A stretch of 24,454 bases of DNA from Patescibacteria group bacterium (lineage in GTDB: Bacteria; Patescibacteriota; Minisyncoccia; UBA6257; UBA9933). Made by a program: the position numbers and the translations under genes. Under the pieces are notes generated by a model. The model did not search any database. It worked only from the letters and a program-made list of their open reading frames with translations, and was not told where the DNA came from. The stretch is taken from assembly GCA_038057615.1 (NCBI GenBank), contig JBBUCW010000011.1:1-24454 (forward strand). The letters are read 5' to 3'. Shown here piece after piece: positions 529 through 18,654 of the stretch; within the stretch, counting starts at the first letter, position 1; every line of letters starts with the position of its first letter.

Positions 529-530
529 GC

Positions 531-594
531 CAATGTTGTTGAAATTTATGAGCGAGGCTCAATGCCGAGCGAAATAAATTTCACTACAACATTG
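531..594 (+). repeat. 64-bp REP-like hairpin with tandem G.A pairs
   Basis: CAATGTTGT(531-539)/ACAACATTG(586-594) and TGAAATTTAT(540-549)/ATAAATTTCA(574-583) are perfect complements. Inner GAGCGAGGC(550-558)-TCAAT-GCCGAGCGA(564-572). Confidence 0.75.
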
Positions 595-597
595 AGC

Positions 598-726
598 ACC
601 CCTCCTCACTTTTACCACAATATTTTTTTAAATTTTGAGTCCGCAAGATTCAAAATTATTTTCAATACTCACTAAATATTATATAACCGCTATTTCTTAA
701 TTGTTACCGTAAAAGTGGGGAGGGGT
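598..726. repeat. 129-bp element with 18-bp terminal inverted repeats and an internal hairpin (MITE-like or structured RNA)
   Basis: ACCCCTCCTCACTTTTAC(598-615) versus GTAAAAGTGGGGAGGGGT(709-726), 17/18 complementary. Internal stem AATTTTGAGTC-CGCAA-GATTCAAAATT (about 631-657). Confidence 0.75.
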
Positions 727-741
727 AAAGGTTTTGTTTTC

Positions 742-772
742 AAAATTTCTACGCCTTTCGGCTTGAAATTTT
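742..772 (-). other. Hairpin with GAAA tetraloop just downstream of rpsU (no canonical U-tract)
   Basis: Minus strand reads AAAATTTC-AA-GCC-GAAA-GGC-GTA-GAAATTTT. Confidence 0.45.
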
Positions 773-784
773 TAACAAAGCCCT

Positions 785-994
785 TTATAATATTCCCATT
801 TTCTTCTCCTTATCCACTTCTTTTTGCTTTTGCTCGCGATGAATGGCGGAGGCTCGCCTTTTTGATTTAGAAATAGAACGGCTTCTGCGTTTTTTCTTTT
901 TTGCTTCAATCAAAATTCCGCTTTGCTGCATTTTTTTGCTAAAGCGGTATAGAAAAGCGCTCATTTGTTCTCCTTCGCGTCGTTTTAATTCCAT
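785..994 (-). CDS. rpsU: 30S ribosomal protein S21 (divergent)
   Basis: 69-aa Lys/Arg-rich protein. 'RREGEQMSAFLYRFSKKMQQSGILIEAKKKK' follows the S21 pattern, and the HIT-rpsU-yqeY order supports the call. Confidence 0.8.
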   Translation of the reverse strand: MELKRREGEQMSAFLYRFSKKMQQSGILIEAKKKKRRSRSISKSKRRASAIHREQKQKEVDKEKKMGIL

Positions 995-1003
995 AGTAAA
1001 ATA

Positions 1004-1077
1004 AGAATATAGGATTTAGAATATAGAATTTAGGAAAATTTTAATCCCTAAATCCTAACTGCTAAATTCTAAATTCT
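1004..1077. repeat. Heptamer-periodic inverted repeat, copy 1
   Basis: TAG at 1010, 1017, 1024, 1031 and CTA at 1048, 1055, 1062, 1069. Both 25-bp arms are identical to copy 2. Confidence 0.9.
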
Positions 1078-1446
1078 TTTATTTTTTTGGTCAAGACTAG
1101 GATGTGGCATTTTATCAATATCTTCCTGTTTTGTCCACCCTCCTAAAAGATGTAGGTGCAAATGGTCTATCACTTGCCCGCCTTCCCTGCCAACATTAAA
1201 AACTAATTTATATCCTTTTAATCCGGCTTCTTCCGCGACCTTTTTAGCCATAAAAATTAACTTAGAAATAATTTCCCGATGGTTGTTTTCAATGTGCATT
1301 ATTGACTGAATATGTTCCTTTGGAACAATTAAATAATGAATCGGCGCCGAGGGATGAGCATCTTTAAAAACAACAACCTCATTATTTTCATAAATTATTT
1401 CAGCCGATATTTCTTTATTGATGATTTTGCAAAAAATACAATTCAT
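1069..1446 (-). CDS. HIT (histidine triad) nucleotide-binding protein, HinT-like
   Basis: 'CIFCKII', 'FKDAHPSAPIHYLIVPK' and the triad 'GQVIDHLHLHLLGG'. Confidence 0.95.
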   Translation of the reverse strand: MNCIFCKIINKEISAEIIYENNEVVVFKDAHPSAPIHYLIVPKEHIQSIMHIENNHREIISKLIFMAKKVAEEAGLKGYKLVFNVGREGGQVIDHLHLHLLGGWTKQEDIDKMPHPSLDQKNKRI

Positions 1447-1454
1447 AATAAAAC

Positions 1455-1534
1455 AGAATTTAGGATTTAGAATATAGAATTTAGGGGAATTTAATTTTAA
1501 AGCCCTAAATCCTAACTGCTAAATTCTTAATTCT
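1455..1534. repeat. Heptamer-periodic inverted repeat, copy 2
   Basis: TAG at 1461, 1468, 1475, 1482 and CTA at 1505, 1512, 1519, 1533. Overlaps the hisS stop codon. Confidence 0.9.
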
Positions 1535-2866
1535 ATTCCTTACTTCTTCCACGACTTTTTTAAGCGGAATGGTTTCTTGCGCTCCACTTTTCATATCTCT
1601 GATAATAATATTATCTTCAAACACTTCTTTTTGTCCTAAGATCAAAGCCATGGCCACCTCTTCCCTGTCTGCAACTCCCAACTGCGAATTAAGCGATTCT
1701 CTTCCTAATGATTCTGAAATTCTAACGCCTGCTTCGCGAAATTCTTCTATTAAACGAAAAGCTCTTTTTTTAGCCGGTTGGCCTATTTGAACTAAAAAGA
1801 CTTTTGCTTTGCTTTTGAAAGGATAAATTATTCCTTGCTCTTTTATTGTTTCAATTATTCTCTCAACTCCCAAGCTAGCGCCAATCGCCGATAAAGAACC
1901 TTTTCTCGCTCCAAGCATCTCGCCTAAATTATCATAACGCCCTCCGCCACCCAAAGAAATATTAGACTTTTCAACAATAAATTCAAAAACCGTTCGGCTG
2001 TAATAATCTAAACCCCTGACTAATCTGGAATTAAGCGTATAAGGCAAATTTAATTCATCCAGATATTCCAAAACAATCCGAAAGTGATTTTTGCAATCAA
2101 GACAAAGACAATCAAGCATAATCGGCGCTTGAGCTTTTATCGGCTGACAATTTTCATTTTTGCAATCAAGAAGACGCAAGGGATTTAAAGATAATCTTCT
2201 GCGACAATCATTGCAAATTCTCCTTTGCGCTTTTTTATAATAATCCTGTAATTTTCTGCGATAAATCGGTCGACATTTTTTACAACCAAGACTATTGATT
2301 TCAACCGTTAAATTTTTTATTTTCAATTCTTCAAGTAAGCGATAATTTATCAAGATAATCTGAGCATCGTAAATCGAATCGCTCTCGCCTCCTAAAATTT
2401 CAAAACCAATTTGATAAAATTGCCGATATCTTCCGGCTTGAGGCGATTCATGGCGGAAAAACGGACCAAAATAATAAAGTTTCGTTGGTTGACCAAGGCG
2501 CGATAATCCATGCTCAAGATAAGCCCGAACAATTCCGGCTGTTCCTTCTGGACGAAGCGCCAAGCGATCTTTGCTTTTAGTTTTTACATAATACATTTGC
2601 TTTTCAATAATATCCGTGGAATCTCCCGCTGATTTTTCAAAAATTTCCGCGGATTCCAAAATCGGCGTGTCAATTCTCGAATAATTATAAAAATCAGCAA
2701 CATCTTGACTGACTTTTTTTACCTTATCCCACCAAAGTTGTTCTGACGGCAAAATATCATGCATACCCTTGGGAGACTGAAATACCGCCTTCTTTTCTTT
2801 CTTTTCTATTTCAACGGGTTTATTTTTTTGGAAATTAGAATATTTGAACATATTATTAAATAGCAT
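1505..2866 (-). CDS. hisS: Histidine--tRNA ligase
   Basis: 'PKGMHD', 'LRPEGTA', 'FRHESPQAGRYRQFYQ', 'LVRGLDYYSRTVFE', 'GGGRYD', 'GVERI' and a C-terminal anticodon-binding domain. The start could be a downstream ATG. Confidence 0.98.
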   Translation of the reverse strand: MLFNNMFKYSNFQKNKPVEIEKKEKKAVFQSPKGMHDILPSEQLWWDKVKKVSQDVADFYNYSRIDTPILESAEIFEKSAGDSTDIIEKQMYYVKTKSKDRLALRPEGTAGIVRAYLEHGLSRLGQPTKLYYFGPFFRHESPQAGRYRQFYQIGFEILGGESDSIYDAQIILINYRLLEELKIKNLTVEINSLGCKKCRPIYRRKLQDYYKKAQRRICNDCRRRLSLNPLRLLDCKNENCQPIKAQAPIMLDCLCLDCKNHFRIVLEYLDELNLPYTLNSRLVRGLDYYSRTVFEFIVEKSNISLGGGGRYDNLGEMLGARKGSLSAIGASLGVERIIETIKEQGIIYPFKSKAKVFLVQIGQPAKKRAFRLIEEFREAGVRISESLGRESLNSQLGVADREEVAMALILGQKEVFEDNIIIRDMKSGAQETIPLKKVVEEVRNRIKNLAVRI

Positions 2867-2867
2867 T

Positions 2868-2990
2868 TAGAACATAGCTAGTAGGCAGTAGAGCAGAAAA
2901 TAGAATGTAGCAAGTAGATAAATATTCTACTTTCTATTCGCTATGTTCTATGTTCTACTCGCTACTCGCTACTCGCTAAATTCTATTTTC
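2868..2990. repeat. Heptamer-periodic inverted repeat, copy 3 (longer, different internal sequence)
   Basis: TAG at 2868, 2875, 2882, 2889, 2901, 2908, 2915. Nine consecutive CTA at 7-nt spacing from 2927 to 2983. Central stem GTAGA-TAAATAT-TCTAC. Confidence 0.9.
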
Positions 2991-3002: not shown

Positions 3003-3551
3003 CTAATACGCCGGCTTCTCAAACGCCATTACCTCATTAAAAGGCCATAGTCTTAATCTGACTAAGCCGACAATTTCAGTTTTTTTAAGACTGCCCCAGC
3101 TCCGAGAATCATAACTATAATTGCGATTATCGCCCATCATAAAATATTCGCCGGCTTTTAAAACAACTTCTTTATCGCCGGAAGTTTTTGTCGTTTGCGG
3201 TAAATAATTTTCTTTAACTGAAAAACCTGCTGGATATTCTTTGTTAAAAACGACAACTTCGCCATTTTTAATTATCAGCCGTTCACCTGGCAATCCGATG
3301 ATTCTTTTAATATAATAAACGCTTTCATCGCCGGGATAGTGGAAAACCAGCACTTCTCCCCGCTCGGGATTTCTAAAACGAAAACTAATTTCATCTATTA
3401 AAAGATAATCTCCCGAAGAAAAATTCGGCTCCATTGAAGCGCCACTGACTAAAAATGGCTGAATTAAAAAAGTGCGAATAATAACAACGGCGATTACCGC
3501 CACGACAACAACCTCAAAAATTTCCCAAAATGAGTATAAAAAAGATTTCAT
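3003..3551 (-). CDS. lepB: Signal peptidase I
   Basis: Catalytic Ser 'VSGASMEPN', Lys 'YYIKRIIGLPGE', and 'GDNRNYSYDSRSWG'. Start moved to M25 (3551) because the 3623 start overlaps pth and encodes low-complexity AT-rich residues. Confidence 0.95.
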   Translation of the reverse strand: MKSFLYSFWEIFEVVVVAVIAVVIIRTFLIQPFLVSGASMEPNFSSGDYLLIDEISFRFRNPERGEVLVFHYPGDESVYYIKRIIGLPGERLIIKNGEVVVFNKEYPAGFSVKENYLPQTTKTSGDKEVVLKAGEYFMMGDNRNYSYDSRSWGSLKKTEIVGLVRLRLWPFNEVMAFEKPAY

Positions 3552-3575
3552 GTATTTTAAATACTTATTTTTTAT

Positions 3576-3583
3576 ATTATAAT
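3576..3583. promoter_or_regulatory. Putative bidirectional -10 element (ATTATAAT) for the divergent lepB/pth pair
   Basis: The palindrome ATTATAAT gives TATAAT on + (3578-3583, 8 nt before the pth ATG) and on - (3581-3576), within a 40-bp intergenic gap. Confidence 0.45.
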
Positions 3584-3591
3584 TAAATTTT

Positions 3592-4140
3592 ATGAAAGTC
3601 AAATTGATTATCGGCTTGGGCAATCCGGGGAAAGAATACGAAAAAACATACCATAATGTCGGATTTTTGGCCGTTGATTACTTAATTGCTCTGTCATCGC
3701 GAGAGAAGCGAAACAATCCCAAAAAAATAGAAATTGCCACGGTCGCCTATAGCGACCTCGCCATGGCGCCTTTGCTAAAAAGCGACGCCTATATGAATCA
3801 ATCCGGTAATTTTGTAAAAACAGCGCTAAAAAAATACAAAGCCAAACCCGATGAAATTTTAATAGTTCATGATGACTCGGATATTGAACTGGGAAAATAT
3901 AAAATTTCTTTCGGTCGCGGATCGGCCGGGCATAAAGGAGTTCAATCAATAATTGACACAATTAAAACAAAAAATTTCTGGCGATTGCGGATAGGTATCG
4001 GACAAACGACAAATGGCAAACAAACAACAACACGAATAAAAGCCATAGATTTAGTATTAAAAAAAATCAATAAAAATGATTTGATAATTTTTGAAAAAAT
4101 TTTTAAAATAATCCAACGCGAAGCGTTGTTGCAAAACTGA
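3592..4140 (+). CDS. pth: Peptidyl-tRNA hydrolase
   Basis: 'IIGLGNPG', 'HNVGF', 'YMNQSG', 'VHDD', 'GSAGHKG' (canonical GHNG) and 'RLRIGIG'. Confidence 0.95.
   Translation: MKVKLIIGLGNPGKEYEKTYHNVGFLAVDYLIALSSREKRNNPKKIEIATVAYSDLAMAPLLKSDAYMNQSGNFVKTALKKYKAKPDEILIVHDDSDIELGKYKISFGRGSAGHKGVQSIIDTIKTKNFWRLRIGIGQTTNGKQTTTRIKAIDLVLKKINKNDLIIFEKIFKIIQREALLQN
3693..3767. repeat. Degenerate REP/RPE-like palindrome lying in-frame within pth
   Basis: GTCATCGCGAG(3693-3703)...CTCGCCATGGC(3757-3767) are 9/11 complementary. Internal GGTCGC-CTATA-GCGACC and CAAT/ATTG stems. Length 75 bp = 25 codons. Confidence 0.65.
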
Positions 4141-16768: not shown

Positions 16769-17555
16769 TTAACTAATAATTTTTATTTCTTTTTTTAATT
16801 ATTTTAGTTATCCAATCATTAAATAAGTCGCAATTCTGAATAATACAATGTCCGCCAATTTTACCGAACATCACTTTCAAAACTGGTCTTATTACATTAT
16901 TTTTACCAAGTTTTTTATAACCTTCATTATAGTCGTTATTGGCAATTGTATAAACCTCATCAAAATTCAATTTCATTTTATCGCAAATTCTTTTAACCTC
17001 TTTTACAAAAATAATATTCCAACCATAATAAGTAGTGTCTAAAATTTTTAATAATTCTGTCGTTTCCGATTTTGCAAAACATTGAGTTTTTATACCAATA
17101 TCAGAAAAAATCTTTGCCGCTTCTTTCGCCTTTTTACCCCCAAAATATTTTATAAAAGTTTTAATACCTTTTTCCAAATTAGGATGAAGCCCGCGAATCG
17201 GACTATGCACGGCCGATGTTAAAATTTTATTTGTCATACCAACAGAAATAGTTGAATGAATAATCACTAATTTAGGCTGATATTTTTCAATATAATCCTT
17301 AGTAATTTTTATAAAATTTTTTGTATTTGGATAACAAATATGAACAATATCAAATTTTCCATCTAAATCATTGTTTTTATCGCGTAAAAAAATATTATAA
17401 TATGGCTTAAAAACATTAAATAAAGATCGACCAACTTCTCCGGCTCCAATAACTAAATGTTTTTTATTATTTTTCATAATTTTGTAATATTTTATTATAT
17501 TCCTCTATCCATTTCTCCGCCACTTTTTCGCTGGAAAATTCTTTTTCAACCAATT
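16584..17555. repeat. 67-bp near-identical direct repeats (16584-16650 and 17489-17555) bracketing the dehydrogenase gene
   Basis: 63/67 identical by manual alignment, offset 905 bp. Confidence 0.85.
16773..17477 (-). CDS. Short nucleotide-sugar dehydrogenase (UDP-Glc/GDP-Man dehydrogenase superfamily, WecC-like motif), lacking the C-terminal domain
   Basis: 'VIGAGEVG', 'HSTI', 'HSPIRG', 'TELLKILDTTYYGWNI', and catalytic 'IGGHCI' (Cys211). Only 234 aa. Confidence 0.8.
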   Translation of the reverse strand: MKNNKKHLVIGAGEVGRSLFNVFKPYYNIFLRDKNNDLDGKFDIVHICYPNTKNFIKITKDYIEKYQPKLVIIHSTISVGMTNKILTSAVHSPIRGLHPNLEKGIKTFIKYFGGKKAKEAAKIFSDIGIKTQCFAKSETTELLKILDTTYYGWNIIFVKEVKRICDKMKLNFDEVYTIANNDYNEGYKKLGKNNVIRPVLKVMFGKIGGHCIIQNCDLFNDWITKIIKKRNKNY

Positions 17556-18654
17556 CGCGACCTCGTCTGCCCATTTCAGCAGCAATTTGGGGATTTTCCA
17601 AAAATTTTAAAATCGCATCCGCAATTTGACTAACATCTTTTTCAACAACTAGACCGGCGCCAGCCGCTTCAACTTCTTTTGAAATACCAACTCCTTTTGT
17701 AACCACGACGGGCTTTCCCACAATCATCGCCTCAACAACCGCCATTCCGAAATTTTCCGAATAGGACGACAAAACAAAAATATCACTTTCGCGATAAGCC
17801 GCGATTTTATCTTCGCCCAAAATCATTCCCACAAAAATTACATCTTTACCAATTTTTAATTTGTAATTTGTAATTTGTAATTTAATCTTTTCTCCGTATC
17901 CGTCATCATCCGGTCCAGCTAAAACTAAAATTGCTTTTGGCTCTTTTTTAATCACTTCGGCAAATGCCGGAATTAAAGTATCTAATCCTTTTATTTTATG
18001 TAACCGTCCCATAAAAAGAACAACTAATCTATCCTTAGAAATTCCAAATTTTTCTCTAAAATTATTTATAGGATCTATATTAATATAATTGCTAAAATCA
18101 ATGCCATTTGGAATAATAATAGTCTTCTTTAAAGGTATATTTAATTTCAAATAATCATTTTTTTCTTTTTCAACCGTAAAATGGATTGCCTCGGCTCCGG
18201 CTAAATTTCTTTTTTCAATTAAAGAAATATAAATTTTCTTTTTTAAAGGATAATATTTAAGTGGTTCTTCCATAAAACTTCCCCGCGGCGAAATAATATA
18301 TGGTTTTTTAAATTTTTTAGCATAATAAGCGCCTAAGGTGGACGCGGCCAAAAAAACAGAAGTGATATGAATTAAATCGAAATCTTTTATATTTTTTGCT
18401 AAAATGCGATGAAACGCAAAAGAATATTTCCATGGTCGAAAACTAATTGGAAAATAAAAAACTTTAACGCCGTCAATATTAACGGCTTCGCCAAGCGAAA
18501 CATTTAAATTGTCTAAACCGTCAATATTTGTAGTATAAACAGCAACATCAGCGCCATTTTTAACTAACCACTTATTTAATTCGTGAACGCTTTTAATCGG
18601 CCCGCCATAGCGAATAGCCGGAAAATAAGCCGGAACAATATGAAGAATTTTCAT
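17467..18654 (-). CDS. Glycosyltransferase family 4
   Basis: 'ILHIVPAYFPAIRYGGP', 'SPRG', 'IPNGID', 'FMGRLHKIKGLD', and 'SYSENFGMAVVEAM'. Confidence 0.95.
   Translation of the reverse strand: MKILHIVPAYFPAIRYGGPIKSVHELNKWLVKNGADVAVYTTNIDGLDNLNVSLGEAVNIDGVKVFYFPISFRPWKYSFAFHRILAKNIKDFDLIHITSVFLAASTLGAYYAKKFKKPYIISPRGSFMEEPLKYYPLKKKIYISLIEKRNLAGAEAIHFTVEKEKNDYLKLNIPLKKTIIIPNGIDFSNYINIDPINNFREKFGISKDRLVVLFMGRLHKIKGLDTLIPAFAEVIKKEPKAILVLAGPDDDGYGEKIKLQITNYKLKIGKDVIFVGMILGEDKIAAYRESDIFVLSSYSENFGMAVVEAMIVGKPVVVTKGVGISKEVEAAGAGLVVEKDVSQIADAILKFLENPQIAAEMGRRGRELVEKEFSSEKVAEKWIEEYNKILQNYEK
17857..17883. repeat. Tandem heptamer (TAATTTG)x3 plus TAATTT inside the GT4 CDS
   Basis: Read directly from the sequence; encodes KLQITNYKL on the minus strand. 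Confidence 0.8.

What the first reader, a model, noticed from the sequence alone, without database searches (positions are those of the whole stretch)
2868..2990. TAG-N4 / N4-CTA register conserved while the sequence varies: a six-frame stop-codon hairpin
Seen: a third, longer element with different heptamers (TAGAACA, TAGCAAG, CTATGTT, CTACTCG) keeps TAG every 7 nt on the left arm and nine consecutive CTA every 7 nt on the right. TAGAACATAGC(2868-2878) perfectly complements GCTATGTTCTA(2940-2950). Because 7 mod 3 = 1, three units place a TAG in every frame, and the inverted layout does so on both strands. All three elements sit at consecutive gene boundaries (lepB|hisS|HIT|rpsU). Inference: the register, not the sequence, is conserved. 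This points to a periodic protein-binding or RNA-processing scaffold, a translational insulator, or the footprint of a mobile element whose gene is absent here.
Basis: partly seen in the sequence, partly recalled or inferred. Interest (0 to 1): 0.7.

Follow-up and report, generated by a model that had tools for sequence, protein, structure and literature searches.

The report
Gene-less heptamer-armed S23p cassette hairpin
The stop-codon-studded hairpin between lepB and hisS is real. It is a gene-less copy of a small cassette family, 7-base-repeat arms around an "S23p" ring-protein gene, that has spread through the gene junctions of these tiny groundwater bacteria.

Summary
There are eight 7-nt-phased TAG at 2861-2917, in two phase blocks, and nine CTA exactly 7 nt apart at 2927-2983. 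As RNA the element folds into one imperfect hairpin with arms of about 55 nt (-48 kcal/mol, z -6).

It is one of 92 TAG/CTA period-7 runs in this 395-kb Patescibacteria MAG, against 0-4 in shuffles. The TAG-arm-first hairpin design occurs in 45 of 401 genomes sampled from the phylum.

The register is the shared signature of many arm lineages that flank S23p / 23S-rRNA-IVP genes (PF05635, Avd-like):
- 44 of the 45 hairpin-positive genomes carry that gene.
- S23p cassettes in relatives have arms identical to window elements 1 and 2.
- Element-3-like arms lie next to S23p in two relatives.
- In one relative the hisS|HIT junction holds a full cassette.
- One cassette is 96% identical between two species from arm edge to arm edge, while the flanks are 81% identical.

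Best reading: a gene-less derivative of a horizontally exchanged, IVS-like cassette. The roles of the TAGs (three-frame stops ahead of the stem) and of the stem (RNase III substrate) are inferred, not shown.

This scan has noted the same class in at least 28 other genomes. I found no paper describing it.

The parts
2861..2917 (.). Left arm of element 3: eight 7-nt-phased TAG in two blocks (2861-2891 and 2901-2917), plus one off-phase TAG at 2879. TAG falls in all three + frames.
2918..2926 (.). Approximate position of the AT-rich tip (loop) of the hairpin.
2927..2985 (.). Right arm of element 3: nine CTA exactly 7 nt apart, which read as TAG in all three - frames.
2868..2985 (-). One long imperfect hairpin in the sense (mRNA) strand, -48 kcal/mol, z -6.0. 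The + strand folds equally well (-49.4, z -7.2).
3003..3623 (-). lepB (signal peptidase S26). Its TAG stop (3003-3005) lies 17 nt before the arm.
1505..2866 (-). hisS. The first ATG (2864-2866) sits in the outermost unit of element 3; an alternative ATG is at 2849-2851. The last 11 codons and the TAG stop are encoded by an arm of element 2.
1450..1539 (.). Element 2: a gene-less hairpin of the TAGGATT/TAGAATA/TAGAATT family, -30.8 kcal/mol on the - strand.
1069..1446 (-). HIT-family gene. Its stop codon is the outermost CTA (1069-1071) of element 1.
1003..1075 (.). Element 1: its arms are near-identical to those of element 2. Its left arm equals, in 25 of 25 bases, the left arm of an S23p cassette in relative G009.
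785..994 (-). Probable ribosomal protein S21 gene (weak match only). It starts 8 nt after element 1.

Best explanation
Element 3 (2861-2985), like elements 1 and 2, is a gene-less member of a cassette family. Full-length members carry a roughly 120-codon S23p / 23S-rRNA-IVP gene (PF05635, a four-helix bundle related to the Avd protein of diversity-generating retroelements) between two inverted arrays of about 4-5 tandem 7-nt units. This is the architecture of the S23p-bearing intervening sequences (IVS) of 23S rRNA, but here it sits between protein genes.

Shown:
- The arms delimit a discrete unit that is exchanged between genomes.
- Gene-less copies share their arms with gene-bearing ones.
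- The copies occupy gene junctions in a presence/absence pattern.

Inferred:
- Gene-less copies arise by loss of the loop. They persist because they are nearly harmless where they sit.
- The 5' arm carries TAG in all three frames, whichever strand is transcribed. Ribosomes coming from lepB, or from a gene that has lost its own stop, are therefore released before the stem, and no fusion protein forms.
- In the lepB-hisS transcript the arms pair into a stem with arms of about 55 nt. The organism's RNase III could cut it, as it cuts IVS stems. That would separate the two cistrons and leave hisS with a start codon a few bases from the stem foot.

How the cassette moves is unknown. Candidates are S23p itself, or homologous recombination through the repeated arms after DNA uptake.
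For: Link to S23p:
- G000 has five PF05635 genes. Two (C16:17272-17580 and C25:2924-3232) lie between TAGGTTT and CTAACAC arrays. These are the same arms as gene-less hairpins at C2:2474, C14:4660 and C33:520.
- S23p cassettes in G009 and G019 carry the arms of window elements 1 and 2: the left arm matches 25 of 25 bases, and the right-arm start is the same.
- Element-3-like units (TAGAAAG ... CTACTTT/CTATTTT) abut S23p genes in G591 and G625.
- In G007 the order is lepB - hisS - arm - S23p - arm - HIT. The junction that holds element 2 here holds a full cassette there.
- 62 of 72 flanks of 36 S23p genes hold a tandem array. The commonest period is 7 and the median is 4.5 copies.
- 44 of 45 genomes with the hairpin pattern have PF05635, against 181 of 356 without it (Fisher p = 3e-11, kin not independent).

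Discrete, exchanged unit:
- The G001:C16 cassette is 96.3% identical to the G000:C25 cassette. The match ends exactly at the outer edge of the one arm that can be checked; the other arm lies at the contig start. The flank matches a different G000 locus at 80.7%.
- S23p dS is 0.15, against about 1.0 for hisS, HIT and the S21-like gene.
- The S23p tree follows arm type across host genomes: 5 changes, against 11.8 expected.

Presence/absence:
- Only 4 of 14 relatives have any heptamer element at lepB|hisS, and each is different. G001 has none at HIT|S21. A relative at about 85% identity in the same aquifer has 40 unrelated bases in place of element 2.

Other:
- Hairpin folds have z of -4 to -7.
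- RNase III is present in G000 and four relatives.
- Published IVS biology: a 28-bp terminal stem, tandem heptamers and RNase III excision in Coxiella (PMC4990558).
- TAG sits on the 5' arm about 200 times, against about 36 for the reverse layout, in 401 genomes. It faces inward 10:1 at S23p genes.
- S23p is under purifying selection, dN/dS 0.07-0.17.
Against: - Element 3 itself is single-copy in this genome. No S23p cassette with exactly its arms was found; the tie rests on shared units and adjacency in two relatives.
- No target-site duplication, transposase or reverse transcriptase was found. Mobility is therefore inferred from one clear transfer case and from patchiness. Vertical inheritance of old paralogues explains part of the agreement between tree and arm type.
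- Only about a quarter of S23p flanks have strictly phased stops (19 of 72 inward, 13 outward). The stop-codon role is thus not general to the family.
- Sense-strand folds are not more stable than antisense folds (15 elements, p = 0.11, trend the other way). This gives no sign of selection on the RNA stem.
- TAG hairpins in 56 viral-contig loci (mean GC 60%) have no S23p gene within the fetched DNA.
- No RNA data exist for this organism.
Confidence: 0.6

Rival explanations
1. A host-selected intercistronic device. The hairpin exists because it benefits the operon, as an RNase III processing or mRNA-stability site with a built-in three-frame translational insulator and a stop-to-start bridge that couples lepB termination to hisS initiation. 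The resemblance to S23p cassettes is then secondary.
For: The fit is tight: stop codon 17 nt or less before the stem or inside it, and start codon 0-15 nt after it. The TAG-first orientation bias holds across the phylum. Element 3 is identical in three samples from two studies. RNase III is present. Known analogues, from my own knowledge, are the phage T7 intercistronic RNase III sites and REP elements.
Against: 10 of 14 relatives have no element at lepB|hisS and manage with spacers of at most 33 nt or overlapping genes. Occupancy is the same (9-13%) at co-directional, convergent and divergent junctions. There is no sense-strand folding advantage. The arms overwrite gene 3' ends, as insertions do.
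Confidence: 0.2
2. Ordinary slippage-born heptanucleotide microsatellites, of the STRR / GGGAATC / TAACTGA class, that arise in place. Inverted pairs form by local duplication, stop-bearing units are favoured by selection at gene ends, and there is no causal link to S23p.
For: Period 7 dominates all tandem repeats in the genome: 133 arrays at score 40 or more. Heptamer excess is known in many bacteria and is attributed to polymerase slippage (PMC4679880 and PMC4692102). TAG hairpins also occur in 7 of 151 cyanobacterial genomes and in GC-rich viral contigs without S23p nearby.
Against: Element 3 consists of units that nearly all differ, which is not what slippage makes. Identical 25-nt arms occur with and without S23p in different genera. 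The 96% block ends at an arm edge. 44 of 45 pattern-positive genomes carry PF05635. No length polymorphism of element 3 was seen across samples.
Confidence: 0.12
3. A REP-like palindrome mobilised by a RAYT / IS200-type Y1 transposase, or an intrinsic transcription terminator.
For: It is an intergenic palindrome. Some families have GTAG-like unit starts. REPs are known to sit between co-transcribed genes (my own knowledge).
Against: Y1_Tnp was not found in G000 and is present in only 9 of 31 relatives, unrelated to hairpin counts. The stems are AT-rich with no consistent T-run, and the terminator scan flags none of the three elements. Occupancy is not lower at divergent junctions.
Confidence: 0.05

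Closest known systems
S23p-bearing intervening sequences (IVS) of 23S rRNA (Coxiella burnetii, Leptospira, Xanthomonas-type S23p; PMC4990558)
   Same: A terminal inverted repeat forms a stem of about 28 bp or more around a PF05635 gene. There are tandem heptamers in the arm region with strain-variable number. ORF-less and decaying forms exist, and the distribution is patchy, as for a selfish element.
   Different: Here the elements sit between protein-coding genes, not in 23S helices, at 10 or more sites per 0.4 Mb. The arms are built wholly of 7-nt units, often with a fixed TAG. S23p is under purifying selection, whereas in Coxiella it is decaying. RNase III cleavage has not been tested here.
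TAACTGA heptamer direct repeats of marine Beggiatoaceae, some Cyanobacteria and Bacteroidetes (MacGregor 2015, PMC4679880)
   Same: These are 7-nt units that place stops in all three frames. They lie at the end of the upstream ORF and a few bases before the next start codon, usually without a Shine-Dalgarno sequence.
   Different: Those are one fixed unit, almost always in direct orientation (169 direct sets and one inverted). Here the units vary, only TAG is fixed, and the arrays come as inverted pairs linked to S23p.
Xanthomonas GGGAATC and Nostoc GGGGAYT heptamer repeats, and the cyanobacterial STRR repeats (Rehm 2015, PMC4692102; STRR from my own knowledge)
   Same: They are intergenic period-7 arrays. 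There are 70-75 convergent (inverted) pairs per Xanthomonas genome, and sequences vary between close species at conserved positions.
   Different: Those are G-rich and quadruplex-forming, with no stop-codon register, and no link to S23p has been reported. The Xanthomonas link was not tested here.
REP/BIME elements and MITEs
   Same: They are short intergenic palindromes, multi-copy, inserted at gene ends and sometimes donating C-terminal codons.
   Different: Here there is no RAYT or transposase partner, no target-site duplication and a tandem-repeat construction of the arms.
Phage T7 intercistronic RNase III sites; the omega interposon (engineered). Both from my own knowledge.
   Same: T7: long imperfect stems between cistrons that are cut to separate the messages. 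Omega: a cassette whose inverted ends carry stops in all frames, so that it works in either orientation.
   Different: These are functional analogies only; there is no sequence or evolutionary relation.

Membership tests
S23p/IVP stem-loop cassette (IVS-like element) | Terminal inverted repeats that pair into a long stem | tested here: met
   2868-2985 folds at -48 kcal/mol, z -6.0. Elements 1 and 2 fold at -27.7 and -30.8.
S23p/IVP stem-loop cassette (IVS-like element) | PF05635 gene in the loop | tested here: not met
   The loop of element 3 is only a few nt long and those of elements 1 and 2 are 11 and 17 nt, so all three are gene-less. Gene-bearing forms with the arms of elements 1 and 2 exist in G009 and G019. 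Element-3-like arms abut S23p in G591 and G625.
S23p/IVP stem-loop cassette (IVS-like element) | Tandem heptamers in the arms | tested here: met
   Coxiella precedent.
S23p/IVP stem-loop cassette (IVS-like element) | Insertion in 23S rRNA helix 9, 25 or 45 | tested here: not met
   The element lies between lepB and hisS. The 23S gene is not in the assembly.
S23p/IVP stem-loop cassette (IVS-like element) | Excision of the stem by RNase III | not testable with these tools
   The rnc gene is present. No RNA runs hold this DNA.
Heptanucleotide simple-sequence repeats (STRR / TAACTGA / GGGAATC class) | Head-to-tail copies of one 7-nt unit, intergenic | tested here: inconclusive
   The period and location fit. 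In element 3, however, only CTACTCG x3 and CTATGTT x2 are true tandem copies; the other units differ outside TAG/CTA.
REP / RAYT system | Cognate Y1 (RAYT) transposase gene in the genome | tested here: not met
   PF01797 gives 0 hits in G000 (75% complete). It is in 9 of 31 relatives, with no relation to hairpin counts.
Intrinsic (Rho-independent) terminator | G+C-rich stem followed by a T-run | tested here: not met
   None of the three elements appears among the 7 terminator-like sites.
MITE | Terminal inverted repeats plus target-site duplication and a transposase-encoding parent | tested here: inconclusive
   Inverted ends and a gene-bearing parent exist, but the parent gene is not a known transposase. 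No duplication was seen at filled versus empty sites.

The most novel reading that the evidence does not exclude
The heptamer arms are the binding sites of the S23p ring. S23p is a pentameric toroid (Xanthomonas S23p, cited in PMC4990558; Avd-like). It would bind about five UAG-N4 units, one per subunit, with the strand wrapped around the ring, much as TRAP binds its (G/U)AG repeats. Protein and arms would then form a self-recognising module that spreads as a unit and leaves gene-less arms that can still be bound in trans. This would give S23p/IVS proteins their first function and would explain why bacterial intergenic repeats favour a period of 7.

Three observations are compatible with this:
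- Arms hold a median of 4.5 units, interquartile range 4.2-4.9.
- Arm type follows the S23p clade.
- Arm sequences are kept between cassettes whose synonymous sites are saturated, dS about 1.

None of these shows binding.
Probability: 0.15. Interest if true: 0.85.

Novelty: new variant of a known kind. Interest (0 to 1): 0.6.

Why it matters
S23p/IVP proteins and 23S intervening sequences have been known for some 30 years without a function, and the excess of 7-nt repeats in bacterial intergenic DNA is equally unexplained. In these Patescibacteria the two phenomena appear to be one: S23p genes sit between heptamer arms, and gene-less arms fill roughly a tenth of gene junctions. In this genome they donate stop codons and C-terminal tails to housekeeping genes.

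This gives concrete, testable handles: recombinant S23p against (TAG-N4)n oligonucleotides, and RNase III against the stems. It also matters for annotation, because the arms fragment assemblies, shift predicted gene ends and can be read through on the CTA-sense strand.

Tried and rejected
- Rfam, gathering thresholds, whole window: no family.
- tRNA/tmRNA scan: none.
- Public RNA runs: no RNA holder listed. The DNA contigs that were laid cannot show RNA ends.
- Sense versus antisense fold energies of 15 junction hairpins: no sense-strand advantage. I could not use G-U asymmetry to argue for an RNA-level role.
- Terminator reading: rejected.
- RAYT/IS200 partner: rejected.
- Reverse transcriptase, as a DGR-type partner for the Avd-like protein: not found in G000, which is 75% complete.
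- 23S rRNA, to look for a classical IVS: not in the assembly.
- S23p near TAG hairpins in 56 viral-contig loci, searched with a local profile: no hit. The link is therefore not universal, or the gene lies outside the fetched DNA.
- Alignment of element 3 with the G019 element at the same junction: only the TAG columns align, so orthology can be neither shown nor excluded.
- Strict phased-stop counts at S23p flanks: weak (19 inward, 13 outward; p = 0.095).
- dS for lepB failed, because my coordinates gave a bad alignment; it was not used.
- The letter-permutation test for stop enrichment (109 of 124 arrays against 95.7 expected; TAG 66 against 32.7) is inflated, because arrays of one family are not independent.
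- Counts over the 401 phylum genomes include one genome flagged as unpublished (G184: no hairpin pattern, one PF05635 match). Dropping it does not change any conclusion.

Full report
**Setting.** The window is contig C11 of a 395-kb, 34-contig assembly that is 75% complete. The closest named HisS relatives are Patescibacteria MAGs, and the DNA is held by groundwater metagenomes of two studies. GC content is 36%. The genes around the finding all lie on the - strand: lepB at 3003-3623, hisS at 1505-2866, a HIT-family gene at 1069-1446, and a 69-codon ORF at 785-994. That last ORF matches ribosomal protein S21 only weakly.

**The observation.**
- TAG starts at 2861, 2868, 2875, 2882 and 2889, then after a 12-nt jump at 2901, 2908 and 2915. 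There is one off-phase TAG at 2879.
- CTA starts at nine consecutive positions 7 nt apart, from 2927 to 2983. The quoted units and the 11-nt complement are correct.
- On either strand the region folds into one long imperfect hairpin: 2868-2985, -48 kcal/mol and z -6.0 on the mRNA strand; -49.4 kcal/mol and z -7.2 on the other strand.
- lepB ends with TAG 17 nt before the stem. The first ATG of hisS lies in the outermost unit at the other foot.
- Elements 1 and 2 fold likewise. The HIT stop is the outermost CTA of element 1. The last 11 codons and the stop of hisS are an arm of element 2.

**It is not chance.**
- TAG-TAG and CTA-CTA distances peak at 7, 14 and 21. At distance 7 the counts are 138 and 178, against about 25 for neighbouring distances.
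- Period 7 dominates all tandem repeats: 133 arrays at TRF score 40 or more.
- There are 92 phased TAG/CTA runs, against 0-4 in dinucleotide shuffles, and 16 TAG-arm-then-CTA-arm pairs, against none.
- Among all 64 trinucleotides, TAG/CTA is by far the most phased per occurrence.
- TAG is not the organism's usual stop codon: TAA 297, TGA 78, TAG 74.
- Many heptamer arrays lack TAG, for example ATTGAGG, GTCGTTG and ATACAAA. The general feature is therefore the period, and TAG marks a large subset.

**Distribution.**
- The strict pattern, four TAG-N4 units, a 5-35 nt gap, then four CTA-N4 units, is present in 12 of 31 relatives. It is present in 45 of 401 genomes sampled across the phylum, about 200 matches with dozens of different N4. 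The back-to-front control pattern gives almost nothing.
- The opposite arm order is about five times rarer, and many of its hits are merely CTAG direct arrays.
- The pattern also occurs, far more sparsely per megabase, in 7 of 151 Cyanobacteriota. It occurs as well in 56 viral-contig loci with a mean GC of 60%.

**What it belongs to.** Notes from earlier reports of this scan pointed to the 23S-rRNA intervening-sequence protein. I tested that lead here.
- G000 has five PF05635 genes (Pfam 121.7 bits for one of them).
- Two of them lie between TAGGTTT and CTAACAC arrays. The same arms form gene-less hairpins at five other G000 sites.
- S23p cassettes in G009 and G019 have the arms of window elements 1 and 2. 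The left arm is identical over 25 nt and the right-arm start is the same. Elements 1 and 2 thus look like those cassettes without the roughly 400-nt loop.
- A BLAST of element 3 against 120 genomes of the order finds partial arm matches in 29. Of seven loci fetched, two have an S23p gene abutting the matching arm.
- In G007 the gene order is lepB, hisS, arm, S23p, arm, HIT.
- Of 72 flanks of 36 S23p genes, 62 carry a tandem array. Period 7 is the commonest and period 8 also occurs. The median is 4.5 copies.
- Across the phylum sample, 44 of the 45 pattern-positive genomes have PF05635, against 181 of 356 others. Relatedness inflates that p-value.

**A discrete, exchanged unit.**
- The cassette on G001:C16 is 96.3% identical to the one on G000:C25. 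The match stops at the outer edge of the one arm that can be checked; the other arm lies at the contig start.
- The adjoining gene matches a different G000 locus at 80.7%.
- dS between the two S23p genes is 0.15, whereas hisS, HIT and the S21-like gene of the same two genomes give 0.93-1.13.
- The S23p tree follows arm type rather than host.
- S23p is under purifying selection, dN/dS 0.07-0.17.
- At orthologous junctions the elements come and go. Ten of 14 relatives have none at lepB|hisS, and the four that do each carry a different one. A relative in the same samples has 40 unrelated bases in place of element 2.
- Elements 1 and 2 are multi-copy in the metagenome, with word depth of about 860 against about 45, and they break contigs. 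Element 3 is bridged unchanged in three samples.

**How it probably works.**
- The published IVS of Coxiella has a 28-bp terminal stem, tandem heptamers of strain-variable number and RNase III excision. G000 and four relatives encode RNase III. By analogy the stems here are plausible RNase III substrates in the operon transcript. This is inference.
- The TAG register puts stops in all three frames on the 5' arm whichever strand is read. The CTA on the other arm is simply its complement.
- The strong preference for TAG-first and for inward-facing TAG at S23p genes (10 against 1) fits a role in releasing ribosomes before the stem or the cassette gene.
- One anecdote fits. HIT here has CAG where G001 has its TAA stop, and it runs 19 codons further to the element's TAG.
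- Against a general role, only about a quarter of S23p flanks have strictly phased stops. There is also no sense-strand folding advantage.
- Occupancy is equal at all junction orientations, and no terminator features are present.
- No Y1 transposase or reverse transcriptase partner was found.

**Verdict.** The finding is real and belongs to a phylum-wide class. Its closest described relatives are S23p-bearing IVS elements and the stop-bearing TAACTGA heptamer repeats. I found no paper describing heptamer-armed S23p cassettes at protein-gene junctions. This scan has reported the class before on other genomes.

Noticed in passing
window 529-784: The 256-nt spacer between the yqeY-like gene and the S21-like gene folds into three stem-loop domains (-81.6 kcal/mol, z -7.2) and has no Rfam or tRNA match. 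It is not heptamer-built. In G001 the same junction holds a TAGGTGT/CTAAAAC heptamer hairpin instead.
   Followed up: partly
window 1069-1130 against L010:1077-1110: The HIT protein is 19 residues longer here than in G001. The codon aligned with G001's TAA stop is CAG here, and translation runs on to the TAG of element 1. The element's stop appears to act as a back-up.
   Followed up: partly
G000 C16:16549-17640 and C25:2522-3290: Both TAGGTTT-armed S23p cassettes sit directly upstream of pilin-like genes (N-terminal G-Q-S-L-V-E-I-L type). The reading frame stays open from S23p through the CTA-sense arm into the pilin gene (open frames of 352 and 245 aa), so arm units may encode part of a leader peptide or cause mis-called fusions.
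   Followed up: no
G000 contig ends (C33:1-16, C5:14-80) and window 1003-1103, 1407-1507: Contigs start or end in heptamer arrays. Metagenome word depth jumps about 19-fold over elements 1 and 2. These repeats are a likely cause of assembly fragmentation in such MAGs.
   Followed up: partly
L129-L184 (IMG/VR contigs): TAG-N4 / N4-CTA hairpins also occur in 56 viral-contig loci with a mean GC of 60%, for example with TAGGCAG, TAGGGGC and TAGGGAG units. Chance TAG is rare at that GC. No S23p gene lies within the fetched DNA.
   Followed up: partly
window 17851-17883: A 4.7-copy AATTTGT array lies inside the 395-codon ORF 17467-18654 (- strand), where it would encode a 7-residue peptide repeat or mark a mis-joined ORF.
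   Followed up: no
G000 C33:15556-15585: A solo arm of four units (TAGAATG, TAGAATT, TAGCGAG, TAGGCAG) shares units with element 3. It sits between a stop and the next start with no partner arm.
   Followed up: partly
phylum sample, control columns: A few genomes (G265 with 32, G123 with 12, G145 with 8 matches) are rich in GAT-N4 ... ATC-N4 hairpins. This is probably a phase-shifted view of TAGATNN units.
   Followed up: no
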